Positions 2,439 to 64,000 of a stretch of 64,000 bases of DNA are shown one piece after another. How positions within the stretch are numbered: position 1 is the first letter of the stretch; every line of letters begins with the position of its first letter. The translations under genes were made by a program, and so were the position numbers. Where the stretch lies: IMG/VR virus record IMGVR_UViG_3300030061_003600; one strand, 5' to 3'. This DNA is from a virus. The notes under the pieces are model-generated. The model did no database searches and was not told the origin of the DNA. It saw nothing but the letters and a program-made list of their open reading frames with translations.

Positions 2439-3026
2439 ATGAGTGCAAAAGGAGGATTTACAATAGGACCATCACACGCAGAGGGTGGAATACCAATGAC
2501 CGTAAAATCAACGGGTCAGAAAATTGAGGTTGAGGGTGGAGAAGGTATTATCAATAAAAAATCTATGGCGGATAATCGTAAATTCAAAGTGGAAGGAACA
2601 CCAAAGCAAATAGCATCTGCGATAAACGAAATAGATGGTAATGGAGTGAGTTTTGATAAAGGAGCCCAAATTACAATGTTTCGCAGAGGGGGAATAATGT
2701 ACGAGCCACAGGTTTGCGATAGATATGCAAAATCTTGTGGAGAATATGATTTTTATGTATCAGATGGTGGCGAAAGTAAAAAAATAGGAGGAATTAAAAC
2801 AAAACCCAATTATTCTAATCCCCAAATGCTAAACATAGAAAAAATTAATATAGATGAAGATTTTTCCAATCCTCATACTTATAAATTCTACACCCAAGCC
2901 GTAATAGATGCATCAAAGAAAAAGGGTGCAGTTATAAACATTGAGTGTTTAGATGATAAGTGTATGTCCTCTTTGATTGACATAAGTGAGATGAATGATG
3001 ATTGCGACAAACTAACAATAAGATAA
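2439..3026 (+). CDS. protein with GPSHxxGGI...EVEGGE N-terminal domain and GG motifs
   Basis: SAKGG, GPSHAEGGIP, EVEGGEGIINKKS, MFRRGG followed by an unrelated domain. Confidence 0.6.
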   Translation: MSAKGGFTIGPSHAEGGIPMTVKSTGQKIEVEGGEGIINKKSMADNRKFKVEGTPKQIASAINEIDGNGVSFDKGAQITMFRRGGIMYEPQVCDRYAKSCGEYDFYVSDGGESKKIGGIKTKPNYSNPQMLNIEKINIDEDFSNPHTYKFYTQAVIDASKKKGAVINIECLDDKCMSSLIDISEMNDDCDKLTIR

Positions 3027-6823: not shown

Positions 6824-6826
6824 ATT

Positions 6827-7042
6827 ATGTGGAACAACACACCAAGAAGATTAAGTGCACAAGACAGAATGAACATATGCAGCCGATGTCCGTTCTCAAA
6901 ACAAACTTTCGGAGTAGGATTAACTTGTGGAACACTATTAAGACCGGAATATGATAGAATGGGAAATAAATTAACCTGCGGATGTATATTAAAAGCAAAG
7001 ACACTACTGCCAAATGAAAAGTGTCCGCAAAATAAATGGTAA
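6827..7042 (+). CDS. small Cys-rich putative zinc-binding protein
   Basis: CSRCPF...CG...CGCILKAKT...CPQNKW. Confidence 0.7.
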   Translation: MWNNTPRRLSAQDRMNICSRCPFSKQTFGVGLTCGTLLRPEYDRMGNKLTCGCILKAKTLLPNEKCPQNKW

Positions 7043-9255: not shown

Positions 9256-9525
9256 ATGGCTTATTTAGCACCAAATTTTAAAATAGATACAACCGAAAAT
9301 AGTTCAATAGATTTTTTAGAAGCAAAAACTGCTGAAGGAAAAGAAATTGTAGGATATGAGGAGAGAGAATTAATAGGTAAAACAGACCGAGATTTAGATG
9401 TCGTTAAAACAGAAAAACTAAATATGGCAAAGTTTACAAAAAACTTGCCTTTATGTAAAGGACCTGAAAATAAGTATTGGACTTTAAATGATGATGGAGA
9501 TTTAACACTTGAATATATTAAATAA
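9256..9525 (+). CDS. hypothetical protein (89 aa)
   Basis: A-rich start context; tiles with neighbours. Confidence 0.6.
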   Translation: MAYLAPNFKIDTTENSSIDFLEAKTAEGKEIVGYEERELIGKTDRDLDVVKTEKLNMAKFTKNLPLCKGPENKYWTLNDDGDLTLEYIK

Positions 9526-9767
9526 TGGAATTGCCAAAATTGTATAGTATAAAAAATATGCAGCAAAAGAAAGAAATTGTTGCAAATATCGTAGAGAAAT
9601 TAAGCCGTTTAGATGCGGAAAGGTTTCCTAATATATGTATGCAAATTGATAATGATAATAGTAAGGTAGAGTTGATAGATACAATTATAACAAACATATA
9701 TAGTCCAATGGGAGTATATAGCGTAGAAGATGCAATTTCTTCTATTGAAGTGACATTGAACAATTAA
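9525..9767 (+). CDS. hypothetical protein (80 aa)
   Basis: Stop/start overlap with the upstream gene. Confidence 0.6.
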   Translation: MELPKLYSIKNMQQKKEIVANIVEKLSRLDAERFPNICMQIDNDNSKVELIDTIITNIYSPMGVYSVEDAISSIEVTLNN

Positions 9768-9841
9768 ATATTGCAAGAATTTTAGATTATATAAGCGAAA
9801 TAGTAGGGCAACTTAATGACAACATTGATTACAATGAAATC

Positions 9842-19461: not shown

Positions 19462-19464
19462 GAT

Positions 19465-22400
19465 ATGGAGGAATATAAAGGTAAAACAATTGAGGAGTTA
19501 AGCGAGTTATTAGATGATTTGCAAGAGCAACAAGAGGTTTTGATTGATGACCTTGATGACCCGGATTTAAAAGAGGCATATGATAGTAATGAAGCCGAAA
19601 TTGCAAGAATAAAATCTGCTATGGGGACAACAGTTGGTAGTGTAGAGCAAGATTTAGAGTATAGAGAAGAAATGGATGCTATGGAAAAAGAGATAGATGA
19701 AAAAGATGAAACCTTTGTAGTTACGGAAAAAGAAGTTAAAAATTCTGATTTAGAAAATAGTAAATTCTCCGATATTAAAATAGATAAAAGCATCTTTTTT
19801 GGAGATGGTGGAAAAACAAAAACAGGAATTATGAAAAATATAGATTTAGACACTTACCATAAAATGCGTAATGCAGAATTTAATAAAGAAGTGAAAGCGG
19901 GAAGAATGGAAGATACTGATGAAAATTGGGAAAGATTTGATGAGGAGTATTTTGAGGAACTTTATGCTAAAGGATATACGATAGAAATGGCAAAAGGTGG
20001 TGCAATTTATAAGGGACATAAAGTAAAGATAAAGGATAGCGGTAAAACAATGAAGGTTACTGATGTATCTAAAAACAAAAAAGACCAAGTAGAGTTTTCA
20101 GGAGATGAAGGAACATACTTGATTGGAGATATTGAAAAAATGGAAAAAGGTGGTAAGGTTTTTAAGGCACCTAAAGGTTGGAGAAAAACAAAACAAGATG
20201 AAGGAGAAAAAACTTATAAGCATAAAGATGGAAGAGAAATTATAGTATCTGATAGTATGGTGGGAACCCCATCTTTTGAGGTAATATGGGAAATAGAAAA
20301 ATCTTACAATTGGGAAGATTGGAAAACAAAAAAGTTTCCGATGAACAAAGAGGGCACTAAAAAAATGGAAGAATTTTTGACAAAACTAATGAGTAGTTCT
20401 TATGCAAAAGGTGGTAAGATTGAAATTACATCTGCACCCGACTATCATAAGGTAAGAAATAAGGAGTATGATAAAAGAGTAAGAGAGGGAAAAATCAAAG
20501 ATACTGATGAAAATTTTGAAAAATTTGATGATGAGTATTTTAATGAATTAGTCAAAAAAGGTAAAATTGATATGGACAATTATTTCGCAAAAGGTGGTAA
20601 AACTGATGATGTAATTATGATTAAAATAGGTGGGGATAAAAAATACCCATATTATATTAAGAAGATTGACACTACACATATGTCTATGGCTAACAATAAA
20701 GATGGAGTTGATTTAGTTGTTCCATCTCATATTTTGCAACACAAAGGAGAAAGTTATTATGATGATGTTCGTTCTTGGTTAAAAGGAGGGCAAAGTCCTA
20801 ATGGAAAATCTTATGATAGTGATTATTACGCTAAAGGTGGTGAAGTAGACAAAGAATACATAATTAGAGTTTACGAAAATCAACAAGATTACGAATTTGA
20901 TGAAAACTATGATAATGTTTATTTAGATGATAAAGCACCAAGCAAAAAAAGAGCCATTAGGAAAGCCCGAGAAATAGAAAATAATAAAGGTAAAAAAGAT
21001 ACTTGGGTAAGAGTAATAGATAATGCATCACAATACAATGATGAAATATATTCTACTACATTTCCTCAAGGTTTTGAAAAAGGTGGAGAAGTAAAATGGG
21101 ATTTTAGTGAAGAAGAAGTTATAGATGGTGCTAATAATTTAGCATCTGCACTAACGCTTATAGATGGAAAATTATTTCAGGTACACGATTTTGAATATGA
21201 CAAAGGTAAAGGTGCCGGTTTTGAACTATCAATAGATGATGAAAAATATGCAGGAGGAAGTTATTATATTGATGCAGATGGCACAATGATAAATGCGGCT
21301 ATGAGTGGTGCTCCTTATGGTAATATAAAAGATAGTAAAAGGGAGTTAATAAAAGCATCTAAATCATTTGCAAAAGGTGGAGAAACTGCTACCGATTATT
21401 CAGGAGAATATAGAGATTTAAGAACTTTTGTAATGAGAAATGGTTTGCGAGAAGCAATGGGTAAAAAATATGGCTTTGAGGCAAAAGATTATGAAGATTA
21501 TGTAAGAGGAGAGTTGGGATATGATACTGAAGTTATACAAGAATTAGCAGGAGATAGATATAAAGTTGAGTATATAGAGAGATACGATGAAGCAACAGGA
21601 AGGAGAGATAAAGATGGAGAAGGAGTTATTATTGTAAGCAAATCATTTGCAAAAGGTGGTATGACAGGATTTAATAAGTTTTTTGATAAATTCAAAAGAA
21701 GTGATGCTTATATATCTGAACCAAGGAAAACTGCTAAAGGAAATTACATAGTAGAAGTAGAGCCACACGATAAAGAAACATCTAAACAAATGAAAGATTA
21801 TATGCAAAGTGAAGGTATAGGATATAGTCCTAAACCTATGGGTAAAGGTTTTTATACTCAATTTGCAAAAGGTGGAGAAACTGAAAAAGGTTATTTAGTT
21901 CTTTTATATGCAGGTTCATATCAATTTAAGAACTCATCAGAGTCAAATATATATTTAAATACTTTGGTTGATGCAATAGAATATGCCAAAAAAGAAATGC
22001 GAAAACAAAGAAATTATCGTTCATCAACGGATAAAATGTGGGCAGTAATTAAAGGAGAAGGGCAAGATATAAGAATAACTGAAGATGATGTTAAAGATTA
22101 TTATGAAAAAGGTGGTCCTATCAAAAGAGGAAGTGGAGCAAGAATGAGTATTGATTTTATAAAAGAAACAAGAAAAGTTGGTGATTTTGTAAGGGTTGAA
22201 ACTGATATTTTGGGAAAAGAAGAATTAACAGGAGAAATTGAGAGTTTCAGTCCTTTAAAAATAAGAACAGATGAAACATCAGTTGTAGTAATTCCTAATG
22301 AGTCCATCAAATATCTTACAGACCCAAGTCCTTTCAACTATGCAAAAGGTGGAGAAATTAGTATAGAGGGAAATCCTTATAAAAATGAAGATTTTTTCAT

Positions 22401-24051
22401 ATATAGAAATGGAAAAGAAGTAGCAAGTTGGAATGTAGATGAAATGGCAGAAGATGAAGATGTAGAAGATTTAGCCAAAGAAATGTTTTATTTGTGGAAA
22501 AATGATGAAGAAGAATTAGGAAAAAGATTAGATAGAATAAGTTATGCAAAAGGTGGTAGTATAGAAAAAGAATTAGAGGGTTATCAGGGAATGTATGATT
22601 ATGCGATAGCCAACAATTTTACACCAAGCCAATTAGCAGATGAATTAGAATTTACAACAGGTTTAAAAGATGAAAGAGATAAAAAGTTTTATGCTCATCT
22701 TAAAAATTTAACTCGTATGTTTCCTGATAAACCCCTTTCTGAATTTGCAAAAGGTGGTGTAACTAAAGGGCAAACATTAGCCGAAAATTTTAATAGGAAA
22801 GATGAAGTTAAAAATGTGGAATTTTGGAAAAATGATGTCATAGTTAAAGATAAAGATGGAAAAGCAGTAAGAATAGATTTGGATAAAGGAGAAAGAATAG
22901 AGTTAAATGCAAAAGGAGGAGAAACTGCTTCACCAATAACTAATTATCATAGAACTATAATGGGGACATTAGGGTTTGATTTGAAAGTTAAAGGAATGAG
23001 AAAAGCACAAGATTTTATTGTATATCCTATTGTTGCAAAAACAGATACTATAAGAATTCAAAGTGATAAAAAATGGGGAGAGATACATATTAATACAGGA
23101 AAAGGAATTTTAAGCAAGTCAGGAAGCACGAGTTGGCATTTACACGCTGATATGATGAATATGAATGTCATTAAGTTTGAATTAACACCCGAAGAATTGG
23201 AAGAATTAAAAAAACAAATAAAATCTACTTCAGGAAAAGATGTAGGTAATACTATTATGAGAACTGATAATAGCGGAGCAGCACTTCTTGAGCACGGAGG
23301 AGAAATTGATTTAAATGAGGTTGATATATATGAAGCGGATGAAAATGGAAATTTTACGGTTGTGATTGATGGAGATGTCTTTGATATGAATTATCATACT
23401 ATGCCTAATATGAGTGTTAATATGTATGCAGGAAGTCGTTCAGAATATCCTTCAGACATTAGTCATTGGGGTAAAAAAATAACATTTGAAGATGCACCTC
23501 AAGTTATAAAAGATAAAATAGGAAAGAGAATAGAGGAATTCCATACGCATTTAGATAAGGGAGGTAAAATCAAGGAAGATAAAAGAAAGTGGTCACATCA
23601 TATGTGGTTCACAAATGAAAAACCGGGTGACACTTATTATTATGAAGATGCCGTAATAGATTATTTGATAGATAATCCACGAACTTTTAAGTTAGATATA
23701 AATAGAAGAGCCCTAAATAAGCCGGGTAAATTATCTGAAGTTTATAAAGATATGGGAATAAGCACAAGTAGTGGATATTTAAATCCTCAAGATATAAAGC
23801 AGTTTGCTATTGATAATGAGAAATACGATTGGTTAAAGATAGAAGGAGATAGAGGTTCTGACTCAAGAAAAAGAACGATTAAAAAGTATTTAGATAGAAG
23901 AAAAAAATATGCAGAATATGCAGAGGGTTTATCAAGAGAAGAATTATTAGAGCAAATTGAAATGTTAAATACGATGGCTTGGGAAGAAAAGGATAATGAA
24001 ATGAGGTCAGAAATGTTAGCAGAAGTAAATAAAATGAGAACACAACTATAA
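19465..24051 (+). CDS. modular protein of about 18 small domains separated by 17 [YFM][AE]KGG-type motifs
   Basis: Motifs in order: FGDGG, MAKGG, MEKGG, YAKGG, FAKGG, YAKGG, FEKGG, FAKGG x3, YEKGG, YAKGG x2, FAKGG, NAKGG, LEHGG, LDKGG. Confidence 0.85.
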   Translation: MEEYKGKTIEELSELLDDLQEQQEVLIDDLDDPDLKEAYDSNEAEIARIKSAMGTTVGSVEQDLEYREEMDAMEKEIDEKDETFVVTEKEVKNSDLENSKFSDIKIDKSIFFGDGGKTKTGIMKNIDLDTYHKMRNAEFNKEVKAGRMEDTDENWERFDEEYFEELYAKGYTIEMAKGGAIYKGHKVKIKDSGKTMKVTDVSKNKKDQVEFSGDEGTYLIGDIEKMEKGGKVFKAPKGWRKTKQDEGEKTYKHKDGREIIVSDSMVGTPSFEVIWEIEKSYNWEDWKTKKFPMNKEGTKKMEEFLTKLMSSSYAKGGKIEITSAPDYHKVRNKEYDKRVREGKIKDTDENFEKFDDEYFNELVKKGKIDMDNYFAKGGKTDDVIMIKIGGDKKYPYYIKKIDTTHMSMANNKDGVDLVVPSHILQHKGESYYDDVRSWLKGGQSPNGKSYDSDYYAKGGEVDKEYIIRVYENQQDYEFDENYDNVYLDDKAPSKKRAIRKAREIENNKGKKDTWVRVIDNASQYNDEIYSTTFPQGFEKGGEVKWDFSEEEVIDGANNLASALTLIDGKLFQVHDFEYDKGKGAGFELSIDDEKYAGGSYYIDADGTMINAAMSGAPYGNIKDSKRELIKASKSFAKGGETATDYSGEYRDLRTFVMRNGLREAMGKKYGFEAKDYEDYVRGELGYDTEVIQELAGDRYKVEYIERYDEATGRRDKDGEGVIIVSKSFAKGGMTGFNKFFDKFKRSDAYISEPRKTAKGNYIVEVEPHDKETSKQMKDYMQSEGIGYSPKPMGKGFYTQFAKGGETEKGYLVLLYAGSYQFKNSSESNIYLNTLVDAIEYAKKEMRKQRNYRSSTDKMWAVIKGEGQDIRITEDDVKDYYEKGGPIKRGSGARMSIDFIKETRKVGDFVRVETDILGKEELTGEIESFSPLKIRTDETSVVVIPNESIKYLTDPSPFNYAKGGEISIEGNPYKNEDFFIYRNGKEVASWNVDEMAEDEDVEDLAKEMFYLWKNDEEELGKRLDRISYAKGGSIEKELEGYQGMYDYAIANNFTPSQLADELEFTTGLKDERDKKFYAHLKNLTRMFPDKPLSEFAKGGVTKGQTLAENFNRKDEVKNVEFWKNDVIVKDKDGKAVRIDLDKGERIELNAKGGETASPITNYHRTIMGTLGFDLKVKGMRKAQDFIVYPIVAKTDTIRIQSDKKWGEIHINTGKGILSKSGSTSWHLHADMMNMNVIKFELTPEELEELKKQIKSTSGKDVGNTIMRTDNSGAALLEHGGEIDLNEVDIYEADENGNFTVVIDGDVFDMNYHTMPNMSVNMYAGSRSEYPSDISHWGKKITFEDAPQVIKDKIGKRIEEFHTHLDKGGKIKEDKRKWSHHMWFTNEKPGDTYYYEDAVIDYLIDNPRTFKLDINRRALNKPGKLSEVYKDMGISTSSGYLNPQDIKQFAIDNEKYDWLKIEGDRGSDSRKRTIKKYLDRRKKYAEYAEGLSREELLEQIEMLNTMAWEEKDNEMRSEMLAEVNKMRTQL
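19993..22760 (+). repeat. dispersed in-frame repeat AAAGGTGG (core of WWTGCAAAAGGTGG), 13 consecutive motif copies
   Basis: Motifs 2-14 of the 1528-aa ORF all use AAA GGT GGN; spacing about 150-300 nt. Confidence 0.85.
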
Positions 24052-24060
24052 CTTAATTAT

Positions 24061-26289
24061 ATGAGCATAGAAGAGAATAGAAAAAAAGAAATGGGTTTTC
24101 CTAAAAATCCTGACAATATAACTAAAGATGAACTTCACGAACATTTTGATTTAAATAATGATGGTAAAGTTAATATAGAAGAGTATGCTGAACATATTAA
24201 TTATCATTGTGAAAACCCTGATGTTTTAGAGGATGAAATGCAACAAGCAGATTTTGAACGAGGTTTTAAATATGCAGAGGGTGGAAAGGTAGAAAAATAT
24301 ATAATTGTAAGGGGTACTAAATATGGTGAAAAGTATTATTACCAAAAGGGTACTAATGAACATAACAACAAATGGTTAAGAACTAAAAAAGGGGCTACTA
24401 TTTTTACTGACATTAAAGAAGCAGAAAAATATGCTGATGAATCCGATGGAGATATAGAAAATTTAACTACCTATGCAAAAGGTGGAGAGGTAGAGATATT
24501 TAGTTATTACTTTGATGTTGATAAAGTAAAAAGCATAGAAAATGTAGAAGTATTTACAAATCAAAGAAAAGGACATAAGAATTATGTGAGAGTAGATTAT
24601 ATTCAGTTGTCTAAACCCCAAACTATGCAAGTTGATTTTAGAAAAATACCATTTGATACACAAGAGGAATTAACCTACATTAAAAAAACTTTACGAGATA
24701 ATTTCGGCTCTACCTATGCAAAAGGTGGTAAAACTAAAAAAGCCAAAACTTGGAAAGAAAAGTATAATAAAAAGTATGGTAATGATTTAGATGCATCAAA
24801 TTCTTTATCAGACATTGCAGAAGATACAGGAGTTTCAAAAAAAGGAATACAAAAGATATATAATAAAGGTATTGGGGCATATAAAACAAACCCCTCAAGT
24901 GTTAGACCTAATGTTAAGTCAAAAGAGCAATGGGCTCAAGCAAGAGTTTATAGTGCAGTAATGGGAGGCAACGCAGCCAAAGTAGATGCTAAAGAGTTAA
25001 AAATGGAAAAAGGTGGAGCATTAAAAAAAGAGTTTAAATTTGACAAAAATTTTGTAATATATGTTCCTTCTACTACTGATGTTGGAGAAAAAATATCTAA
25101 AAAAGAATTAGAAAAGAGGGTTCAAGAAGTAGAAAAATATGTAGCCAATGAATTTGGAGGATATACTGAAACAGAAACCGATGGAGGGTATAAATCAACT
25201 TCAGGAGAGATAATAGAGGAAGATATTGTTAAAGTATCAGTATTTGCTAATAATAAAGATTGGAAAAATAACGAAAACAAAGTTGTAAAGAAAGTAAAAG
25301 AATGGTCTAAAAAATGGGGTCAGGAAGCCATAGGATTTGAATTTGAAGGAGATTTATATTATATAGATGCAGATGGAAAGTTTGGATGGGGAGGAACTAT
25401 ACTTGGTGCTCTTGTCGGGGGGTATGCAGGATATAAGATAGGAAGGGCAAGACCCCAAAAGAAAGGATTTGACACCGAAAAGAAATTAATTAATAGAGCC
25501 AAAAACACAAGATGGGACAAAGATGGCGGCATAAGGTATGCAAAAGGAGGAGAAATGATGAAAGGAATTAGAACACCTAAAATAGTAGAGTTTGAAGATG
25601 GTGGAGAAGTTGATTTATTTGAGCATTATGAAAAACTGCCAACTAAATCAAAAATTATTGTTGATTATTATATGCAAAAGTATGAAGATGGAGATTACGA
25701 TTATAGTGATAGTAAAAAGTTCCTTGAAGAAATGGAAAAAACCGGATATACTTTTGAATATGGGTTAGATAATGAGCCATATGATTTAAGAAAAATGAAA
25801 ATAGGCGGGGCATTAGAATTAGTACACGCATATGATGATGATGGCTCCTTATTTGGAACAGGACATATAGAAAAAGTAGAAGGCGGAAAGACCTATGTTA
25901 GATTTGATAGCCAAAAGGTTAAGGCATTTGATAATGACAAAGTTAAGCCCGTAATGGCAAAGGGTGGATTAACACCTGCCAAAGCAAAGAAAATGTTAGA
26001 TGATGGAATGGCTCAAGGAAAGCCGCTTACTGATAGGCAAAAAAGATATTTTGGGGCAATATCGCAAGGAAAAGCAGATAAAGCAAGAGAAAAATCAAGT
26101 ATGAAGAGGGGAGGAAAAACAAAATCTATAAATTATAAAAAGAAAGATTATGGTTTAGATTATTTATATAATCAATTAAAAATTAGTCGTGAACTTTTAG
26201 ATAGAGCAACAACTACTGATGAAAAAGATATTCTTTCATTAAGATTGAAAAGCATACAAAAGGTAATTGATAATACATTGAGAATATGA
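24061..26289 (+). CDS. second GG-motif modular protein with N-terminal EF-hand
   Basis: EF-hand loop DLNNDGKVNIEE; motifs YAEGG, YAKGG x3, MEKGG, FEDGG, MKIGG, MAKGG, MKRGG. Confidence 0.8.
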   Translation: MSIEENRKKEMGFPKNPDNITKDELHEHFDLNNDGKVNIEEYAEHINYHCENPDVLEDEMQQADFERGFKYAEGGKVEKYIIVRGTKYGEKYYYQKGTNEHNNKWLRTKKGATIFTDIKEAEKYADESDGDIENLTTYAKGGEVEIFSYYFDVDKVKSIENVEVFTNQRKGHKNYVRVDYIQLSKPQTMQVDFRKIPFDTQEELTYIKKTLRDNFGSTYAKGGKTKKAKTWKEKYNKKYGNDLDASNSLSDIAEDTGVSKKGIQKIYNKGIGAYKTNPSSVRPNVKSKEQWAQARVYSAVMGGNAAKVDAKELKMEKGGALKKEFKFDKNFVIYVPSTTDVGEKISKKELEKRVQEVEKYVANEFGGYTETETDGGYKSTSGEIIEEDIVKVSVFANNKDWKNNENKVVKKVKEWSKKWGQEAIGFEFEGDLYYIDADGKFGWGGTILGALVGGYAGYKIGRARPQKKGFDTEKKLINRAKNTRWDKDGGIRYAKGGEMMKGIRTPKIVEFEDGGEVDLFEHYEKLPTKSKIIVDYYMQKYEDGDYDYSDSKKFLEEMEKTGYTFEYGLDNEPYDLRKMKIGGALELVHAYDDDGSLFGTGHIEKVEGGKTYVRFDSQKVKAFDNDKVKPVMAKGGLTPAKAKKMLDDGMAQGKPLTDRQKRYFGAISQGKADKAREKSSMKRGGKTKSINYKKKDYGLDYLYNQLKISRELLDRATTTDEKDILSLRLKSIQKVIDNTLRI

Positions 26290-37179: not shown

Positions 37180-37899
37180 ATGGAAAATTTAAACCGTTAT
37201 TTCTCTGATGCAGAAGAAAACATCTCAAATGAGTATATGTCAGCAGATGGCGTAAACGAATGGGATGATGCTTTTGACTTTGGTGGTTCCGAAGAAGAGT
37301 ACCTAAATGCAGTAGGGTCTGCTGATGCAAGTTCATCACAACCTTACATCATTTCACTTTATAACTCTACGGCAGCAGATATTGCTTCTGTTGAGGTAGG
37401 AGGTGCGTATAACAACATTACAACGACTGTTGGCGATAAAGCCAATACTGCGGGTGTTGCATATACAATGGGTATTTCAGGTGTAACTTATCTTGAATTT
37501 TTGTGGCAAAGTAGTTCAAAACCATTCGTGGTTGGACTTACTTACTTACAATCTGATGGAGGTTCATCTCAAGTTCTTGAAACTATCGTAGTGAAAGTAG
37601 TGGACTCTAATGGTAACCAACAACAAAAAACTCTTGTTCCAACAATTGACCCTTACCAAAACCAAACAGACATTACTGTATTAAAGCATACCTACAAGTG
37701 GGATGGCTTTACTACATTAACAGTTAATAATGTGACTGCAAAGAAAACTTTAAAAGTTTACTTGTTCCCATCTGAAACTGTTTCTCAAGGTCGTGCTCTA
37801 ACAGGCAATTCAATTGCTCGTGGTTATGGTAATCCAAATGTTGTAAGACAAGATAAAATTGTTTTAGGTCAAGGAGTTGCTCGTGCATTAAGAGGTTAG
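37180..37899 (+). CDS. major capsid protein candidate (single jelly-roll-sized beta domain after an acidic leader)
   Basis: About eight beta-strand segments in ~140 aa; high-expression codon bias (CGT, GGT, TAC, AAC, ATC) unlike neighbours; own leader and terminator; near the ATPase. Confidence 0.6.
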   Translation: MENLNRYFSDAEENISNEYMSADGVNEWDDAFDFGGSEEEYLNAVGSADASSSQPYIISLYNSTAADIASVEVGGAYNNITTTVGDKANTAGVAYTMGISGVTYLEFLWQSSSKPFVVGLTYLQSDGGSSQVLETIVVKVVDSNGNQQQKTLVPTIDPYQNQTDITVLKHTYKWDGFTTLTVNNVTAKKTLKVYLFPSETVSQGRALTGNSIARGYGNPNVVRQDKIVLGQGVARALRG

Positions 37900-39635: not shown

Positions 39636-39772
39636 TGGCTTTAGAACCTTACGAACAAGAAGAGATGGAAATGGATGTAATACAGAATGGAATATCCGTA
39701 AAGTATTTAGCCATTGCCGGTGGAGTGTTAGTAGCATTAATAGTAGGAATAAATTGGTTAATTAGAAGATGA
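39635..39772 (+). CDS. small TM protein (45 aa, not in ORF track)
   Basis: Overlaps the upstream stop and downstream ATG; YLAIAGGVLVALIVGINWLIRR. Confidence 0.7.
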   Translation: MALEPYEQEEMEMDVIQNGISVKYLAIAGGVLVALIVGINWLIRR

Positions 39773-40599
39773 ATATATTATTTAAAACAAAGCAAAAGTC
39801 ATTAACAATAATGATAGAGGTCGTTACAGATGGTCCTCAAAAAATGCAAATTGTTGTAAAGGATATAAATAAGCCAAATACGGATTATACAAACCGATAT
39901 GCAACCATAAATGGAACACAGAGGTTTTTTGTAAGAATGCCAATGTCACCATATGAAGCATTAATTAGCGTGTATAATAAAGCAAATGGCAATTTAAAAC
40001 AAGGTCAAGACCCAACTTTTAAAGTAGTAAAAGTGGATGCAAGACCTTTAGAAAGAAAAATGGATTGTGTTGATTGGAGTAATCCAAAAATTAGGGATTT
40101 TGTGAATTTTGCACAACAATTCTCTGACAACGCAGGTATATTAAGTGCAGGAAAGTTTCCTAATGGGAGCACATATATCTCTGATGAGGGTAATTTTAGA
40201 ATAGATTACTTTGATGATATAAGAACAAAAAGAGGTTTGGTAATACAAACCCCTGCAAGAATTAGTCAGTCCAAAGGAATTATACAAGTGAGCAAAGCAC
40301 ATTATAAAAAGTTCACAGTTCCAATGAGAATGGCAATTCTATTACACGAATTTTCTCATTTTTATTTAAATGAGAATATGGAAGATGAAACAGAAGCAGA
40401 TTTGAATGGATTATTAATTTATTTGGCTCTTGGTTATCCAAGGATAGAGGCATATCAAAGTTTCCTTACAACATTTAAGGACACACCGACACCTCAAAAC
40501 AAAGAAAGGTTTGACATTTTAAATCAGTTTATAACAAATTTTGAAAGAAATAAATTTTGTACTCAATATAACACACCCAATTTGAATGCAAGTAGATAA
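39769..40599 (+). CDS. HExxH zinc metalloprotease (gluzincin-type), candidate maturation protease
   Basis: AILLHEFSHFYLN followed by ETEAD; N-terminal beta domain; no TM. Confidence 0.7.
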   Translation: MNILFKTKQKSLTIMIEVVTDGPQKMQIVVKDINKPNTDYTNRYATINGTQRFFVRMPMSPYEALISVYNKANGNLKQGQDPTFKVVKVDARPLERKMDCVDWSNPKIRDFVNFAQQFSDNAGILSAGKFPNGSTYISDEGNFRIDYFDDIRTKRGLVIQTPARISQSKGIIQVSKAHYKKFTVPMRMAILLHEFSHFYLNENMEDETEADLNGLLIYLALGYPRIEAYQSFLTTFKDTPTPQNKERFDILNQFITNFERNKFCTQYNTPNLNASR

Positions 40600-57065: not shown

Positions 57066-58436
57066 ATGGATAAAAATTTATTGGGACTAATAGGTGTCGG
57101 TGTGGCTGCCTATTTTATTCTTAACAAGAAGAAGGATGAGGAGGTTGCTATAACCACCAATGAACCTACCACACCCGTAGACCCAATTATTTCTGATGTA
57201 ACACCCGTTACACCAATAGTAGACCCATATATAGACCCTAACACAGGAGTTGTAACACCCGTTACACCAATAGTAGACCCATATATAGACCCTAACACAG
57301 GAGTTATTGTAGACCCTATTGTACCACCTGTAACAGATGTAATAGGATGTATGGACCCTAACTCAATTACTTATAACCCATTAGCAACTATGGAACCTGT
57401 TTCAGGATTAGATGCAAATGGTAATCCGGTATGTCAGTATGGCGACCCGATTGACCCAACTCCGGTTATAACACCGGGATGTATGGACCCATTAGCAACT
57501 AACTATGACCCATTAGCAACAATAGACAATGGGACTTGTGTATTACCTGTAACTCCGGTTGCAGGATGTACTGATGCTACTGCAACTAACTATGACCCAT
57601 TAGCCACATCTGATGATGGTAGTTGTGCTTATGCTCCTGCTCCAATAGCAGGATGTATGAACCCGTTGTCAGATAATTATAACCCATTAGCAACAATTGA
57701 TGGGGAACCTTGTATAGGTCCATTTAATCCAATGCCATTAATTCCGGGATGTACAGATGCAACTGCAAACAATTATAATCCAAGTGCCGAAGAAGATGAT
57801 GGCTCGTGTACTTATGATATAGGCGGGTGTATTGACCCAACTGCAAATAATTATAATGCAGGTGCGAATATAGATGATGGAAGTTGTACATATGATATAG
57901 GCGGGTGTATTGACCCAACTGCTACTAATTATAATATAAATGCCAATATAGATGATGGCTCTTGTGATTACACACCGGCTGCCGTTATGGGATGCGTAGA
58001 CCCTACGGCTAACAACTATAATCCTTCCGCAAATGCAGATGATGGTAGTTGTACTTATGATATAGGAGGATGTACTGATGCTACGGCAGCCAACTACAAT
58101 CCAAGTGCGAATGTTAATGATGGAAGTTGTGCTTATACTGTAAATTGTTATCCTCAAGGATGTTTAAGTCCGGGTGTACCTGAACCTATGCAATCATATT
58201 CAGTAATTGGTTCGGCAACTTGCCCACAATACACACAACAAACACCGGCTGACTGCGGTGCATTACCTACAACAGGATGTACTGACCCAAATGCTATTAA
58301 CTATGATGCAGGAGCAACTACACCTTGTGCAGGTCAAGGCGGAGGCGGAGGTAACGCAGGTGGAGGAGGTCTAAATCCAACACCAAATGTCGGAAGAAAC
58401 TTTAGTGGAGGACAATTTATGTTTGGAGATTATTAA
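57066..58436 (+). CDS. N-terminal TM protein with ten GC[TMIV][DN]..A.NY...A..DDGSC repeats
   Basis: Repeats counted in the translation; ends FSGGQFMFGDY like 50851. Confidence 0.8.
   Translation: MDKNLLGLIGVGVAAYFILNKKKDEEVAITTNEPTTPVDPIISDVTPVTPIVDPYIDPNTGVVTPVTPIVDPYIDPNTGVIVDPIVPPVTDVIGCMDPNSITYNPLATMEPVSGLDANGNPVCQYGDPIDPTPVITPGCMDPLATNYDPLATIDNGTCVLPVTPVAGCTDATATNYDPLATSDDGSCAYAPAPIAGCMNPLSDNYNPLATIDGEPCIGPFNPMPLIPGCTDATANNYNPSAEEDDGSCTYDIGGCIDPTANNYNAGANIDDGSCTYDIGGCIDPTATNYNINANIDDGSCDYTPAAVMGCVDPTANNYNPSANADDGSCTYDIGGCTDATAANYNPSANVNDGSCAYTVNCYPQGCLSPGVPEPMQSYSVIGSATCPQYTQQTPADCGALPTTGCTDPNAINYDAGATTPCAGQGGGGGNAGGGGLNPTPNVGRNFSGGQFMFGDY
57197..57304 (+). repeat. 54-bp tandem duplication encoding VTPVTPIVDPYIDPNTGV x2
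   Basis: Read directly; copies identical. Confidence 0.9.
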
Positions 58437-59998: not shown

Positions 59999-60478
59999 AT
60001 GGGAATAGATTCAGGTTTTAATAGTTTTGGGTTTGTAGATGACCGAGAAGAGGAAGAAAGATGGGGGCTTTTAGATAAGAAATTATCTGAAGCGAACTCT
60101 CCTACTCCTCCTAAAGAAGAAGATACAATTCATACTATTGATGGAAAAATGGAAGTTGGTGATGATGGCACTTCTGATTGGGTTGAAGATATGCAGAAAA
60201 GTAGTTTAAAAACCTATAAAAGAAAAAGTGCTAAAAACAGAAATTTCTTTCAAAGAAATAAGAGAGAGATATTTGATGCGGTAATTATATTAGGCATCAT
60301 ATATGTAGGTTATAAATTATTCTTTGAGAAAGATGAAGATGGCGATTTTGACCACGGGGGAGAAGTAGATTATACTCCTACTCCTCAATCCGTACCGGCA
60401 CCTGAACCTGCGGCTCCTATAAATCCTGCACCTCCAAGACCGGAGATGCCGGAAGCAACTTTTAACCCTGAAGCATAA
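59999..60478 (+). CDS. membrane protein with one FDHGG motif and Pro-rich tail
   Basis: TM AVIILGIIYVGYKLFF, then FDHGGEV. Confidence 0.7.
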   Translation: MGIDSGFNSFGFVDDREEEERWGLLDKKLSEANSPTPPKEEDTIHTIDGKMEVGDDGTSDWVEDMQKSSLKTYKRKSAKNRNFFQRNKREIFDAVIILGIIYVGYKLFFEKDEDGDFDHGGEVDYTPTPQSVPAPEPAAPINPAPPRPEMPEATFNPEA

Positions 60479-60588
60479 TGAGAGAAGATAATAGAGGGGA
60501 TAAAAAAAAGAGGAAGCCAAGAATAGTGTTTTGGACAATTTTAGCAGTAGGACTATGGTATATGAACGAAAAAGTATTTAAAAAATAA
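60478..60588 (+). CDS. small TM protein (36 aa, not in ORF track)
   Basis: Overlaps the upstream stop; IVFWTILAVGLWYM. Confidence 0.6.
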   Translation: MREDNRGDKKKRKPRIVFWTILAVGLWYMNEKVFKK

Positions 60589-60592
60589 AATT

Positions 60593-61108
60593 ATGAAAGA
60601 ATTATGGTTTGGTCAAGCGGGGGTTACTTTATCTCAACACGGAGATGGAGATGATAGATTTCCGGGATGGCAAGAAAGTTTTGGAGCCGGTACATATTTA
60701 GGAAATGATGATTTCCCTAACGATGATGCATCGCATATAGAAATAGATAGCGGATATACTGCAACATTAAGAGAACACGGTCCATCTGATGACAGATACC
60801 CGGGTAATGAATATACTTACACAGGACCTACTACTATGAACTTAAATCATTTTAATGATGAATTAAGCGAACTTGAGGTAGATGAGATTGTGGAGCCAAC
60901 ACCTGACCCAATACCTGACCCAATACCTGACCCAACAATAGAGGATGAAATAATAGATGCAGATATTCCCGTAGATGTGCCTGATATGCCTGATACAGAT
61001 ACAGGAGATGTTGATGAAGCAGGTTTAGCAGGAGGAGGTAATACAATGTTATATGTTGGAATAGGAGCAGTTGCATTAGTGGCAATCGTTTTAATGATGA
61101 AAAAATAA
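60593..61108 (+). CDS. beta/gamma-crystallin-like domain protein with C-terminal TM
   Basis: VTLSQH...NDDASHIEIDSGYTATLREH...FNDELSELEV two-motif pattern; PDPI repeat linker. Confidence 0.6.
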   Translation: MKELWFGQAGVTLSQHGDGDDRFPGWQESFGAGTYLGNDDFPNDDASHIEIDSGYTATLREHGPSDDRYPGNEYTYTGPTTMNLNHFNDELSELEVDEIVEPTPDPIPDPIPDPTIEDEIIDADIPVDVPDMPDTDTGDVDEAGLAGGGNTMLYVGIGAVALVAIVLMMKK

Positions 61109-61112
61109 AATT

Positions 61113-62201
61113 ATGGCTGAAAACAAAAAATGGATAGCAGCAGTAAATGCAGAAATGAAAAAGAAGGGAACAGTAGGTTCTTTTACTAAACAAGCCAAAA
61201 GAGCAGGAATGTCTGTTCACGATTTTGCTATGAAAGTAAAGGAGAATCCTGAAGATTATTCTAAAAAAACACACGAAAGAGCAGGTTTGGCTTTAACTTT
61301 TGAGAAAATGGCTAAAGATAGAAAGTATGCAGCAGGTGGAAAAACTCAAGGATATAATGATAAGTTAGATGAAGATTTAGGAACAAGATTAGGTAGAGAG
61401 AGAGGTTATAAACAATCATTAAAAGACCGTAGAGATGAAAGTAAAGCAGGAAATAAAACTCTTGGTCGTAGAGCATATGCAAGTGTAGATACTATGGATA
61501 AAGGAGATAGAATGTTTATGCACGGAGGAAAAACTAAAATGATGCACGGAGGTTTTACAGAAGATTACACATTAAAATTCAAAAGAGATACAGATGTTAG
61601 AATTGTAGGTGAAGATGGAAATGTAGTTGATGTTGAAAATTATAAAAAAGGTGACCAAGAAAAAGTAGATATATTATCTTCTGATGGTAAATTTTTAATG
61701 GTACAATTTCAAGATGGTTATGTAGGTCATATCAATAAAGAAGATGTGCAAGACCAAATGTATATGCACGGAGGCAAAACGCAAGGTTATGCCGATGAGC
61801 AAGATGAGAGTTTAGGAATGAGAACAGGAGCAGAATCTACTAAAAAACAAAGTATGAAAGCCCGTAGAGATGATTCTTACGGAAAGTGGGGTAAAAGAGA
61901 TATGGAAGATAGAGATATTACTATGGCACGAGGTGGGTCTGTAAAAGGAAAAATTGATAGAGATAGATATGTAAAACTGCGAAGAGATAAAGACAAAGAA
62001 ATTGCTAAACTAAAGAAAGAAAAAGGTGCTTTAAGAAAAGCAACTATCACTAAAGAAAAATGTGATGACAAAATTGAAACTCGTTTAGAGGGAGAGTCAA
62101 ATGCAATAAAATTGAAAGAGTCAAGTGGAGATACCAACCAAACTTTACTTATTGGAGGTGTAGCCGGAATTTTATTTGGAGCATTCTTAATTGGAAGATA
62201 A
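61113..62201 (+). CDS. third GG-motif modular protein, with C-terminal TM
   Basis: YAAGG, FMHGG, MMHGG, YMHGG, MARGG; two related GGKTQGY modules. Confidence 0.75.
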   Translation: MAENKKWIAAVNAEMKKKGTVGSFTKQAKRAGMSVHDFAMKVKENPEDYSKKTHERAGLALTFEKMAKDRKYAAGGKTQGYNDKLDEDLGTRLGRERGYKQSLKDRRDESKAGNKTLGRRAYASVDTMDKGDRMFMHGGKTKMMHGGFTEDYTLKFKRDTDVRIVGEDGNVVDVENYKKGDQEKVDILSSDGKFLMVQFQDGYVGHINKEDVQDQMYMHGGKTQGYADEQDESLGMRTGAESTKKQSMKARRDDSYGKWGKRDMEDRDITMARGGSVKGKIDRDRYVKLRRDKDKEIAKLKKEKGALRKATITKEKCDDKIETRLEGESNAIKLKESSGDTNQTLLIGGVAGILFGAFLIGR

Positions 62202-62203
62202 TT

Positions 62204-64000
62204 ATGAAAAGAAGAAATAGACAAAATAGTTATGAGAGAGGGGGGCAGTTAGAACTTGCCAAGGCAATGGGTAATGTTGCCAAAAAAGGTGAAAAAGAAA
62301 TTAATGAGGGAAGAGAAGAAATAAAAAGTTTAAGAAAGGATATTACAAAGACAGAAAATGAAGTTAATAATTTGAAAAGAGGTATTGACATTCAAAATAA
62401 ACTTAAAACAAAAAAAGAAGGTATTATTAAGGACATAAAGAAAGATTTAGGCGGAATATATAATACTGTTCAAGATGCAAAAAAACAAAAAGCAAAATTT
62501 GCCGATGGTGGAGATATAAAAGCCACATCTGAATACACTTTTAGCGAATTATATAAAATGCCTTATGGTAAATTAGAAAAGTATTTTAAGAAGTTTTATG
62601 GATATGAGGGAGATGAAGAAGTTGTTTTTGATGAAATATATACAGATAGTCAATTTGTGGGTAAAAGCGAAAAAGAAAAAAAGAAAATACTAATAGATAA
62701 TTTCAAAGATTTTGCAAAAGGTGGGGAAATAACAAATGCAGATGGCGAAACTAAAACAAAAGAAGAGTGGATAAAAGATTGGGAGGAATGGCAAGAAAAA
62801 TCATACGGAAGTGAGTATTATGATGTTCCTAAACTTGTAGAGCACTATGATATGCAAGGAGAACTTGCAGAACAAGTCAAATATGATTTAGAAATAAGTA
62901 GAAGTCAAGCCGAAGAGTTGGCAGAAATGATATATAAAAAACATTCAGAAGGGGGGACAAAATTTAAAAAAGGTGGGGATTTAGATTGGGGAGATGAATA
63001 CACAATAGAAATTTGGGAAACGGAAGAACACAGGGAGCATTTAGGACCTGACACTATATTGCCTGATGGCACGACTGATGAAGAGGTTATTTCAGAGGCA
63101 CGGAAGTTTTTTGAAGATTATGCTGCGGTAGAGGTTGAGAAAAATGGAGAAGTTATTTTTCATATATCTACTGATGCCCCTAAAGGAAAAAGATATGCAA
63201 AAGGTGGTAGTGTAGAAGATAAAGAATATGTATTAGAAAGATACTATGTATATGTAAGCCGAGATAGTTATGAAGAGGGAGAGTTAGATAATGTGCATAA
63301 TTGGGATAGTTCTGATATGCAAGAAAATAATAAAACTTTCTCATCAAAATCTGCTTTAATGGACTTTATCAAAGAAGTAATTGATAGAGATACACAAGAG
63401 GACAGGACAATAGATGATTACTTTATGATTGAAAGTGATGATGATGAAACTACTATTGATTATTCAGTATTATGTAAGTATAATGCATTAGGTAGAGGTT
63501 ATGACCATTACGAAAAAGCATCTGATGAAGAAATAGAAAAATGGAAGAAAGGTGATTTAGAACTATTTAATGTTGGTTTTACATTTAAAGTAAAGGTATA
63601 TGAGCCGAGAAAGAAAGCAGAATTTGCAAAAGGTGGAATTACCAAAGAAGAAGCCATAAAGGAAGCATTAAGGCAGGGGGTAGATTTTGAAAAAGATTTT
63701 CACGCACAAAGTAAAGGGAATGAATTAGTAGAGATAGCCAAAAAACAAGGTTATCAAAAGCCAAAAAGTGCAAGTGGGAGTAGAGGGAGATATTTCTTTT
63801 ATTATTTACAAAAAGAATATGATAAGAATAAAGAATATGGCTACTATGATGATTATGCTAAAGGTGGATTTATTAAAGACAACTATTGGGGAATTGATGA
63901 AGATGAATTTAATGAATTAAAAGAAGAAAAGCAGTTAGATTTAGGAAAATGGCATCTGTATTATAATGATACTATGAATGAGTGGGAGGCAACAATGGAT
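62204..64000 (+). CDS. fourth GG-motif modular protein, 3'-truncated by the window end (not in ORF track)
   Basis: Manual translation from ATG 62204 stays open to 64000 (599 codons); YERGG, FADGG, FAKGG, FKKGG, YAKGG, FAKGG, YAKGG. Confidence 0.85.
   Translation, partial: MKRRNRQNSYERGGQLELAKAMGNVAKKGEKEINEGREEIKSLRKDITKTENEVNNLKRGIDIQNKLKTKKEGIIKDIKKDLGGIYNTVQDAKKQKAKFADGGDIKATSEYTFSELYKMPYGKLEKYFKKFYGYEGDEEVVFDEIYTDSQFVGKSEKEKKKILIDNFKDFAKGGEITNADGETKTKEEWIKDWEEWQEKSYGSEYYDVPKLVEHYDMQGELAEQVKYDLEISRSQAEELAEMIYKKHSEGGTKFKKGGDLDWGDEYTIEIWETEEHREHLGPDTILPDGTTDEEVISEARKFFEDYAAVEVEKNGEVIFHISTDAPKGKRYAKGGSVEDKEYVLERYYVYVSRDSYEEGELDNVHNWDSSDMQENNKTFSSKSALMDFIKEVIDRDTQEDRTIDDYFMIESDDDETTIDYSVLCKYNALGRGYDHYEKASDEEIEKWKKGDLELFNVGFTFKVKVYEPRKKAEFAKGGITKEEAIKEALRQGVDFEKDFHAQSKGNELVEIAKKQGYQKPKSASGSRGRYFFYYLQKEYDKNKEYGYYDDYAKGGFIKDNYWGIDEDEFNELKEEKQLDLGKWHLYYNDTMNEWEATMD

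What the first reader, a model, noticed from the sequence alone, without database searches (positions are those of the whole stretch)
59999..64000. Second GG-array locus at the end of the structural operon, partly missed by the ORF track
Seen: FDHGG in TM protein 59999; five motifs and a C-terminal TM in 61113; at least seven motifs in the open-ended ORF from 62204. A module there (DEYTIEIWETEE...ISEARK...VEVE) resembles one in the first array (KEYIIRVYENQQ...IRKARE...VRVI). Inference: both loci belong to one system; linkage to structural genes and TM anchors suggests cargo is tethered to the viral membrane and released by GG cleavage.
Basis: partly seen in the sequence, partly recalled or inferred. 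Interest (0 to 1): 0.7.

Follow-up and report, generated by a model that had tools for sequence, protein, structure and literature searches.

The report
Membrane-anchored swappable protein-cassette arrays in marine virus
Two neighbouring genes of an uncultured marine bacterial virus encode membrane-anchored strings of unrelated small protein modules joined by one standard seven-residue joint, and related viruses swap whole modules, in frame, exactly at that joint and between three separate gene loci.

Summary
The motifs and membrane anchors are real. ORF 62204 carries 7 strict [FYM]x[KERDH]GG joints (0.08 expected). ORF 61113 carries 5 of a variant form (M[AH][HKR]GG) and a C-terminal anchor. 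FDHGG in ORF 59999 is conserved in 5 relatives.

A 100%-identical Tara contig extends the window. ORF 62204 is 677 aa and also ends in a C-terminal anchor.

Both proteins share one plan: a conserved head, variable cassettes and a conserved anchor. Twenty-seven relatives of the second show 19 different cassette orders.

Across genomes the link is direct. A strain 99% identical in locus 1 carries the 231-nt cassette of window 62978-63208 inserted precisely at a locus-1 joint, with crossover inside AAAGGTGG.

Relatives have a third array locus that includes an ArdA anti-restriction module. Distant arrays carry RelA/SpoT and zeta-toxin domains.

Best reading: a tail-anchored variant of phage polyvalent effector proteins, with the joint serving as an in-frame recombination site. 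Cleavage at GG and a virion membrane remain untested, and no protease was identified.

The scan had already reported the locus-1 arrays of this genome, and arrays with other linkers elsewhere.

The parts
59999..60478 (+). 159-aa bitopic membrane protein. Basic stretch, hydrophobic helix (aa 91-107), then the conserved F-D-H-G-G-E-V-D (nt 60347-60361) and a Pro-rich tail.
   Evidence: The motif is invariant in 5 homologues, with synonymous Gly codons. It lies on the acidic (outer) side of the helix, opposite to the array joints.
60593..61108 (+). 171-aa acidic tail-anchored protein (hydrophobic helix aa 149-165). It is a conserved neighbour just upstream of the arrays.
61113..62201 (+). Array B1, 362 aa. 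Head aa 1-76 (nt 61113-61340, phrog_20603). Basic 'QGYND.LDE.LG...RRDES' module copy 1, aa 77-139 (61341-61529). 8-aa mini-spacer. Inserted cassette aa 148-221 (61554-61775). Module copy 2, aa 222-275 (61776-61937). Conserved charged C-terminal region with anchor (61938-62198; helix 62142-62192).
   Evidence: Insertions and deletions among 5 orthologues begin and end at GG.
62204..64000 (+). Array B2, 677 aa in full; it continues 237 nt (78 codons plus stop) beyond the window. Head aa 1-103 (62204-62512). Cassettes at 62513-62725, 62726-62977, 62978-63208, 63209-63637 (the near-universal 143-aa module c0), 63638-63868 and 63869 onward. It ends with YAKGG and a C-terminal anchor, both outside the window.
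62978..63208 (+). Mobile cassette (B2 aa 259-335, 231 nt). The same DNA is inserted at the locus-1 joint (window 21084/21085) in a 99%-identical strain.
   Evidence: L005:11444-11688 is 99.2% identical, and both crossovers fall inside the shared AAAGGTGG.
63209..63637 (+). Module c0, a compact alpha/beta domain present in 22 of 27 head-and-tail relatives.
   Evidence: (pLDDT 83.9, pTM 0.72). There is no clear PDB match. Two stand-alone uncharacterised proteins of about 120 aa in AlphaFold DB match at E 6e-7 and 2e-6.
19465..26289 (+). Locus-1 arrays A1 and A2. They use the same joint but have no anchor, and they draw on the same cassette pool.

Best explanation
Window 61113-64000 (running 237 nt past the window end) encodes two tail-anchored cassette-array proteins, B1 (362 aa) and B2 (677 aa). 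Each has a conserved N-terminal head and a conserved C-terminal GxxxG-type membrane anchor. Between them lies a variable string of small, autonomous, mutually unrelated modules. Every module ends in one standard joint, [YFM]-A-K-G-G-[KE]-[VTI]; B1 uses M-[AH]-[HKR]-G-G. The two proteins belong to the same cassette system as the arrays at 19465-26289 and a third locus downstream in relatives. SHOWN: the DNA core of the joint (AAA GGT GG) is where whole cassettes are inserted, lost and moved, in frame, between loci and between viruses. INFERRED: the modules are counter-defence or host-takeover effectors, making this a membrane-anchored variant of phage polyvalent proteins. INFERRED: the anchor places them on the cytoplasmic face of a membrane, together with at least 12 other tail-anchored products of the same gene run. 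That membrane is most likely the internal membrane of a tailless virion. The joint also has a role at protein level, as a structured turn or a recognition/cleavage site. Cleavage is possible (about 1 in 3) but is not needed to explain the data.
For: Motif excess: 7 strict joints in B2 against 0.08 in shuffles, and 1 in 16,186 aa elsewhere.

Architecture: head and anchor are conserved while the interior turns over. The closest relative, L001, is 94.5% identical in nucleotides up to the FADGG joint at 62511, and similarity then stops. Twenty-seven head-and-tail proteins show 19 interiors drawn from at least 66 module families. B1 orthologues differ by insertions and deletions bounded by GG.

Breakpoints: 19 of 28 homology ends fall within 15 nt of a joint, against 3.6 expected by chance (P < 1e-4).

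Exact event: a 231-nt cassette from B2 is inserted at an A1 joint in a 99%-identical strain, with crossover inside AAAGGTGG on both sides.

DNA-level constraint: the first Gly codon is GGT in 24 of 25 window joints. GGT is used at that position in only 16% of the 146 non-array GG dipeptides. Shine-Dalgarno avoidance is excluded, because the genes have A-rich leaders with no SD.

Protein-level constraint: position +2 after GG, which was not used to select the joints, is V/T/I in 80% of 607 joints (1.98 bits). Orthologous B1 joints keep GG while residues and codons vary. FxxGG[ED][VI] is conserved in ORF 59999 with synonymous codons.

Content: a full ArdA domain (E 4e-23) is the first module of a tail-anchored locus-C array. 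Distant arrays with the same joint carry RelA_SpoT, Zeta_toxin and ArdA. A DarB-like helicase flanks locus 1. Stand-alone versions of modules lack the joint.

Membrane context.
Against: No module of B1 or B2 in this window has an assigned function. The effector reading therefore rests on relatives and on strain-level turnover. A virion membrane is not shown: the capsid candidate gives only weak jelly-roll matches (Z 6.3 or less), and the ATPase assignment rests on a DUF87 hit below Pfam's cut-off. By analogy with PRD1 assembly (established knowledge), a tail-anchored protein would face the capsid rather than the DNA-filled lumen, so delivery into the host is not obvious. Only 11 of 87 long relatives that share a B1 module have a C-terminal hydrophobic tail, so anchoring is a local speciality and not a property of the whole system. 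The bias to GGT could partly reflect joints spreading together with cassettes, rather than selection for recombination.
Confidence: 0.6

Rival explanations
1. One reading: true polyproteins. The main job of the joint is to be a cleavage site. A virus-encoded protease cuts after GG and frees each module from the membrane anchor, in the maturing virion or after entry.
For: The motif is uniform over seven residues, with invariant GG and conserved positions on both sides. The same motif is conserved at protein level in a non-array membrane protein, where cassette exchange cannot explain it. Stand-alone module homologues lack it. Two unassigned HExxH proteins are encoded (5300-6823 and 39769-40599), and the second sits nearest to metallopeptidase clusters by language-model features (score 0.87, a lead only). 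Precedents from established knowledge: ASFV pp220/pp62 cut at GG-X, adenovirus (M/I/L)XGG-X sites, T4 internal proteins, and processing of P1 DdrB (PMC5512222).
Against: No protease family was detected in 59 window ORFs or in neighbours of relatives (gene tables). The FDHGG of ORF 59999 lies on the opposite side of the membrane from the array joints, so one protease could not reach both (positive-inside rule). B1 tolerates M-H-G-G and A-A-G-G joints. The AF2 model of module c0 draws its N-terminal joint as a beta-hairpin turn rather than a free linker, though at low confidence (pLDDT 65-75). A few joints are followed by Pro.
Confidence: 0.3
2. Structural matrix proteins. B1 and B2 are uncleaved virion building blocks, a tegument-like or spacer layer between membrane and capsid. 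Their bead-like modules would vary neutrally or for packing reasons, not as effectors.
For: The genes lie inside a run of tail-anchored genes downstream of the capsid candidate. Head and anchor are strictly conserved. No catalytic domain was found in B1 or B2.
Against: A cassette differs in location between strains that are 99% identical, and there are 19 interiors in 27 relatives. This is atypical of structural proteins. The same cassettes occur in anchor-less arrays next to a DarB-like helicase, and the same array family carries ArdA, RelA/SpoT and zeta-toxin modules.
Confidence: 0.12
3. Host-membrane proteins that are not virion components. The anchor targets the arrays to the host inner membrane during infection, for example for superinfection exclusion or to act on membrane-bound defence systems. 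The virus may not contain lipid at all.
For: A virion membrane is unproven. Tail-anchored topology exposes the modules to the cytoplasm, where defence systems act. Locus-1 arrays lack anchors and so do not need a membrane.
Against: Single-pass proteins are strikingly concentrated around the capsid candidate: 25 of 42 ORFs, against 7 of 36 in the first 37 kb. A small HerA-type ATPase is present, and no terminase, portal or tail family was found in 64 kb.
Confidence: 0.2
4. A chance or compositional artefact in Lys/Gly-rich sequence.
For: None beyond the overall K/E/G richness.
Against: Shuffles, conservation in hundreds of relatives and the coincidence of breakpoints with joints.
Confidence: 0.01

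Closest known systems
Polyvalent proteins of phages and conjugative elements (Iyer, Burroughs, Anand, de Souza, Aravind 2017, PMC5512222)
   Same: Many unrelated domains sit in one phage polypeptide, with extensive mosaicism. ArdA, RelA/SpoT and a DarB-type helicase appear in the same system. The predicted role is in conflict with host defences, and processing is possible.
   Different: The modules here are mostly tiny (50-140 aa) and uncatalogued. They are separated by one uniform seven-residue joint whose DNA core is the recombination point. The locus-2 proteins add a fixed head and a C-terminal membrane anchor. The paper contains neither 'linker' nor 'transmembrane' (0 occurrences each), and no held paper contains YAKGG or FAKGG.
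GG-X processed polyproteins of large membrane-containing DNA viruses (ASFV pp220/pp62 with protease pS273R) and adenovirus precursor cleavage at (M/I/L)XGG-X
   Same: There are repeated Gly-Gly sites in proteins encoded among morphogenesis genes. ASFV pp220 is membrane-attached (by myristoylation), as these arrays are by a tail anchor. This comparison rests on established knowledge and was not tested here.
   Different: No clan CE cysteine protease was found. The aromatic/Met residue sits at P5 with Ala at P4, whereas adenovirus sites have a hydrophobic residue at P4. The products would be variable accessory modules rather than conserved core proteins. Cleavage is not shown.
Integron gene cassettes and other cassette-exchange systems
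   Same: A standard short site delimits interchangeable units, and arrays differ between near-identical genomes.
   Different: Exchange here is in frame, inside one ORF, and at a 9-11-nt core. There is no attC-like structure and no integrase in view. It most likely runs on ordinary homologous or microhomology recombination between co-infecting viruses (inference).
Linker-delimited module arrays noted earlier in this scan in other uncultured phages (e1-5380179, e1-3415899, e1-5341019; unchecked AI notes)
   Same: One standard linker, module swapping at the linker, and an unproven suspicion of cleavage.
   Different: The linker sequences differ (for example Q-G-V-A-E-G). Those arrays are in tailed phages, and none is reported as tail-anchored with a fixed head and anchor.

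Membership tests
Polyvalent proteins (Iyer et al. 2017) | Two to 15 distinct domains in one polypeptide encoded by a phage or conjugative element | tested here: met
   B2 has a head, 6 cassettes and an anchor; B1 has a head, 3 modules, a conserved C-terminal region and an anchor. Modules are unrelated to each other in a profile all-versus-all comparison. One module folds autonomously.
Polyvalent proteins (Iyer et al. 2017) | Presence of the family's hallmark conflict domains (DarB-type helicase/methylase, MuF, MPTase, ART, RelA/SpoT, ArdA and others) | tested here: inconclusive
   None is present in B1 or B2 of the window. ArdA is in the locus-C array of L004, and RelA_SpoT, Zeta_toxin and ArdA are in distant arrays that share B1 modules and the joint. 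A DarB-like helicase flanks locus 1.
Polyvalent proteins (Iyer et al. 2017) | Packaged and delivered into the host with the DNA | not testable with these tools
   This needs virion proteomics and infection assays.
GG-X processed viral polyproteins (ASFV, adenovirus type) | Repeated Gly-Gly-X sites at domain boundaries | tested here: met
GG-X processed viral polyproteins (ASFV, adenovirus type) | A clan CE (adenain/Ulp1-like) cysteine protease encoded by the virus | tested here: inconclusive
   Pfam found no such family in 59 window ORFs. However, only about 71 kb of an estimated 90-100 kb genome was seen, and the proteins are very divergent.
GG-X processed viral polyproteins (ASFV, adenovirus type) | Cleavage products demonstrated | not testable with these tools
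Double-glycine leader peptides with C39 peptidase/ABC exporter | An N-terminal leader of 15-30 aa ending in GG, and a C39-domain transporter nearby | tested here: not met
   The joints are internal and repeated. No C39 or ABC transporter hit was found in the window.
Tail-anchored membrane proteins | A single hydrophobic helix within about 30 residues of the C-terminus and no N-terminal signal or other TM segment | tested here: met
   Hydropathy places the helix at B1 aa 344-360 of 362. The B2 tail is IIGGLAGVLLGIFL followed by NK at the end. The tail is conserved in a cluster of 40. Insertion has not been tested experimentally.
Membrane-containing tailless dsDNA phages (PRD1/PM2-like, Varidnaviria) | A jelly-roll major capsid protein and an FtsK/HerA-type packaging ATPase | tested here: inconclusive
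   The 272-aa ATPase has an N-terminal Walker A motif and hits DUF87 at E 5e-4, below the Pfam cut-off. The capsid candidate has 906 homologues. Its AF2 model has pLDDT 65.6 and gives weak beta-sandwich matches, including the PR772 penton (Z 6.0), FLiP MCP (5.5) and PRD1 P3 (4.6). All are below the tool's Z 8 guide.

The most novel reading that the evidence does not exclude
A large (about 90-100 kb) tailless, membrane-containing virus of marine Bacteroidota anchors polyproteins of counter-defence modules in its internal membrane. It releases them by a dedicated protease that cuts at [YFM]AKGG. This would be a bacterial counterpart of the GG-X polyprotein maturation of ASFV and adenovirus. The same joint would double as an in-frame, integron-like exchange site that lets the virus re-deal its effector set between three loci.
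Probability: 0.2. Interest if true: 0.88.

Novelty: new variant of a known kind. Interest (0 to 1): 0.66.

Why it matters
If the reading holds, these arrays form a naturally indexed library. Every stretch between two joints is a self-contained small protein that viruses keep trading, probably to beat host defences, so new anti-defence proteins could be harvested simply by cutting array sequences at the joint. At least 66 module families sit in just 27 relatives of B2, and 74 of 87 long representatives that share a B1 module carry the joint.

The fixed head-and-anchor frame of locus 2 shows that the cassette system can be plugged into a membrane-targeting scaffold. That gives a defined construct for testing localisation, packaging and cleavage.

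The exact cassette move between loci in 99%-identical strains is a clean natural example of in-frame domain shuffling at a 9-11-nt site. It is relevant to how multidomain proteins evolve and to the design of modular fusion proteins.

Tried and rejected
Searches that found nothing:
- tblastn of B2, the 804-aa ORF and the ATPase against 50,697 deposited phage genomes gave no match.
- The search for related loci in IMG/VR with B1 and B2 found no relative.
- No whole genome is held for this window. The contigs behind the loci are not searchable as genomes.
- PDB sequence searches of the ATPase and both HExxH proteins found nothing.
- Contexts of P0292 and P0224 came from short contigs and were uninformative.
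- Literature searches found no description of this virus group.

Tests with negative or unclear results:
A within-window profile all-versus-all search found no module shared between loci A and B.
- Aligning homologue fragments to the whole B2 for a full-length fold failed, because MAFFT misplaced the head and cassette pieces (A5). Only module c0 was folded.
- Module c0 against the PDB: Foldseek best E 0.1; VIA-align best Z 5.2, with AcrIE2 at Z 4.4. No fold was assigned.
- The capsid candidate's fold searches were inconclusive, and the Atlas feature search was uninformative.
- Complex prediction of the conserved B1 C-terminal region with the B2 head gave no verdict (score 0.01).

Explanation rejected:
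- Shine-Dalgarno avoidance cannot explain GGT at the first Gly of the joint. Genes here have A-rich leaders without SD, and non-array GG and KG dipeptides prefer GGA.


Full report
**Observation.**
All genes in the window lie on the + strand, and GC is about 0.32. ORF 62204-64000 contains seven matches to the strict pattern [FYM][AEFSHK][KERDH]GG. These are YERGG, FADGG, FAKGG, FKKGG, YAKGG, FAKGG and YAKGG, spaced 70-140 residues apart. Five thousand shuffles of the protein give a mean of 0.08 and a maximum of 2. Only one match occurs in 16,186 aa of non-array ORFs.

ORF 61113-62201 has five joints of a variant form (YAAGG, FMHGG, MMHGG, YMHGG, MARGG) and a hydrophobic helix at aa 344-360 of 362.

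ORF 59999-60478 has FDHGG about 10 residues after its single helix. In five homologues F-x-x-G-G-[ED]-[VI]-D-Y-T-P-T-P-Q is invariant while the Gly codons vary.

**Extending the contig.**
The protein search returned a 365-aa fragment identical to the window's ORF that runs on past the window end. Its contig L009, from a Tara Oceans assembly, is 100% identical to window 63139-64000 and continues for 6.7 kb. ORF 62204 (B2) is therefore 677 aa. It ends with one more YAKGG, a short basic stretch and a C-terminal hydrophobic helix, very like the tail of ORF 61113 (B1).

The next five genes (78, 172, 183, 185 and 97 aa) are again tail-anchored. The locus therefore lies inside a run of tail-anchored genes, not at its end. 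In the window, 25 of 42 ORFs at 37-64 kb have one hydrophobic segment, against 7 of 36 in the first 37 kb. At least 12 of these segments are C-terminal.

**Conserved frame, variable interior.**
Four related contigs (L001, L002, L004, L006) are syntenic. The order is a PG_binding_1 gene, a 40-43-aa TM gene, the 149-160-aa FxxGG protein, a further TM gene (167-175 aa in three contigs), array B1 (287-616 aa) and array B2 (425-798 aa).

B1 orthologues share a head (phrog_20603), two copies of a basic module (QGYND.LDE.LG...RRDES), a charged C-terminal region and the anchor. They differ by insertions that start and stop at GG.

B2 orthologues share a 103-aa head and the anchor. The closest relative, L001, is 94.5% identical in DNA up to the FADGG joint at 62511. 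Similarity then stops. Among 27 proteins with this head and anchor there are 19 different interior cassette orders, drawn from at least 66 module families. One 143-aa module (c0) is present in 22 of them.

c0 folds confidently on its own (pLDDT 83.9, pTM 0.72). It has no clear PDB relative. It does match two stand-alone uncharacterised proteins of about 120 aa in AlphaFold DB (E 6e-7 and 2e-6).

**Are the two loci one system?**
The two named modules are not significantly alike (BLASTP E about 1, hhalign probability 2%). With the joint stripped, profile searches among all window modules find only three links: a duplicate inside A1, the duplicate inside B1, and the shared B1/B2 tail.

Across genomes, however, the link is direct. 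Contig L005 is 99.2% identical to window 9414-20424. Inside its locus-1 array it carries a 245-nt segment that is 99.2% identical to window 62963-63207 in B2. Read base by base, L005 follows window A1 up to ...GAAAAAGGTGG. It then follows the B2 cassette 62978-63208 up to ...GCAAAAGGTGG. It then returns to A1 at the same joint, 21084/21085. This is a precise, in-frame insertion of one cassette.

Other cassettes of window A1 occur in the B2 array of L006 (85% identity) and in a third array locus, C, of L001 (93%) and L004 (76%). At least seven module families span locus types. Locus C lies about 7.5 kb downstream of B2 in relatives, after an Fe-SOD gene. In L004 it starts with a full ArdA domain (E 4e-23) and ends in the same anchor.

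**The joint.**
Homology breakpoints between the window's locus 2 and six related contigs fall within 15 nt of a joint in 19 of 28 cases. Chance would give 3.6 (P < 1e-4).

At DNA level the first Gly codon is GGT in 24 of 25 window joints, 17/21 in L001, 14/16 in L004, 10/10 in L002 and 5/5 in L006. GGT is used for the first Gly of only 16% of 146 non-array GG dipeptides. The second Gly codon follows background usage. Avoidance of a Shine-Dalgarno-like AAGGAGG does not explain this, because genes here have A-rich leaders without SD (as in Bacteroidota) and non-array KG pairs prefer AAAGGA.

There is also a constraint at protein level. In 607 distinct joints from many arrays, the residue two positions after GG was not used to select the joints, yet it is V, T or I in 80% (1.98 bits). 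Orthologous B1 joints keep GG while neighbouring residues and codons vary. The lone motif in ORF 59999 is conserved with synonymous codons, at a place where no cassette exchange occurs. Stand-alone homologues of the B1 basic module lack the joint.

The joint is thus both a recombination core and a protein feature. The c0 model draws its N-terminal joint as a strand-GG-strand hairpin, but at low confidence.

**What the modules are.**
Pfam and PHROGs assign nothing to B1 or B2 beyond phrog_20603. In relatives, arrays contain ArdA, DUF5824 and about ten PHROG families of unknown function.

A search of 1.84 billion representatives with B1 found 640 proteins. Of the 87 listed that are 300 aa or longer, 74 carry two or more strict joints. 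Some include RelA_SpoT, Zeta_toxin or ArdA domains at one end. Locus 1 follows a 2,456-aa DarB-like SNF2 helicase.

These contents, the module sizes and the strain-level turnover fit the polyvalent proteins of Iyer et al. (PMC5512222). Those authors propose that such proteins travel with the DNA and may be processed. Their paper does not describe a uniform linker or membrane anchoring, and no held paper contains YAKGG or FAKGG.

**Membrane and cleavage.**
There is a small ATPase with an N-terminal Walker A motif and a sub-threshold HerA/DUF87 match. No terminase, portal or tail family was found in 64 kb. The abundant 239-aa structural candidate has 906 homologues, and its model is a beta-sandwich with weak matches to jelly-roll capsid and penton proteins. 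These fit a tailless, membrane-containing virus but do not prove it.

No protease family was detected. Two HExxH proteins (5300-6823 and 39769-40599) remain candidates; for the latter, metallopeptidase clusters are nearest in the Atlas at score 0.87, which is a lead only.

Two points weigh against simple 'cargo release'. First, the FDHGG of ORF 59999 sits on the opposite side of the membrane from the array joints. Second, a tail-anchored protein should face the capsid rather than the DNA lumen if the virion membrane forms as it does in PRD1 (inference from established knowledge).

I put cleavage at about 0.3-0.35 and a virion-membrane location at about 0.5.

**Verdict.**

Locus 2 is a distinct, tail-anchored form with a fixed head and anchor. 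It is a new variant of polyvalent effector proteins in which a standard joint serves in-frame cassette exchange. Release by cleavage remains an open hypothesis.

The scan had already followed up the locus-1 arrays of this genome (e1-5324823, e1-5324824) and noted analogous arrays with other linkers in other phages. New here are the anchored architecture, the completion of ORF 62204, the third locus, the exact inter-locus cassette move, and the protein-level constraint outside the arrays.

Noticed in passing
L004:19545-21851; L001:19943-22396; L002:17840-19570: Relatives have a third cassette-array locus, about 7.5 kb downstream of B2 and after an Fe-superoxide dismutase gene. In L004 it begins with a complete ArdA anti-restriction domain and ends in the same C-terminal anchor. 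In L002 all five joints read YEKGG or YEDGG, which suggests the joint is homogenised within an array.
   Followed up: partly
window 3033-8085: Three consecutive genes lie just upstream of the DarB-like helicase and locus 1. They are a 755-aa protein with an N-terminal P-loop, a 507-aa protein with HEMGH (weak DUF2201_N hit, E 0.89) and an acidic Gly-rich insert, and a 349-aa protein with a weak VWA_2 hit (E 0.0046). This looks like an ATPase/metallopeptidase/VWA trio rather than head genes.
   Followed up: partly
window 61341-61529 and 61776-61937: The basic module QGYND.LDE.LG...RRDES...RAY.SV.TMDK is very widespread; B1 matches 640 representatives. It often sits at the extreme C-terminus of long arrays and also exists as a stand-alone 65-111-aa protein without the joint. 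Its function is unknown. A role as a packaging or DNA-binding tag is conceivable.
   Followed up: partly
window 61509-61553: Joints occur 8 residues apart (HGGKTKMMHGG). Relatives have two or three such mini-repeats in tandem (GGKTEMMHGGKMKMMKGG). These look like scars or slippage products of recombination at the joint.
   Followed up: no
L009:1099-3246 (directly downstream of the window end): Five further tail-anchored small proteins follow B2. One (172 aa) carries the SNHPGFLGG motif that other window proteins share (38521, 43655, 54292).
   Followed up: no
window 57066-58436: A 456-aa protein with an N-terminal TM segment carries about nine tandem copies of a Cys-framed unit, C.DP.A.NYN..A..DDGSC.Y. 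The next ORF (58454) has one more copy.
   Followed up: no
window 2439-3026: The N-terminus of a 195-aa protein is dense in GG motifs (MSAKGG, SHAEGGI, EVEGGEG). It has no family hit, and any relation to the array joint is unknown.
   Followed up: no
whole window, gene starts: There are no Shine-Dalgarno sequences. Leaders are A-rich (for example AAAAAATAAAAT before ATG), which, together with GC of about 0.32, points to a Bacteroidota (Flavobacteriia-like) host.
   Followed up: partly
window 37180-37899: This 239-aa protein has an acidic, disordered leader and a beta-sandwich core. It has 906 metagenomic homologues, many from long contigs of 50-90 kb. It is probably the major structural protein of an abundant, undescribed marine virus group.
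   Followed up: partly
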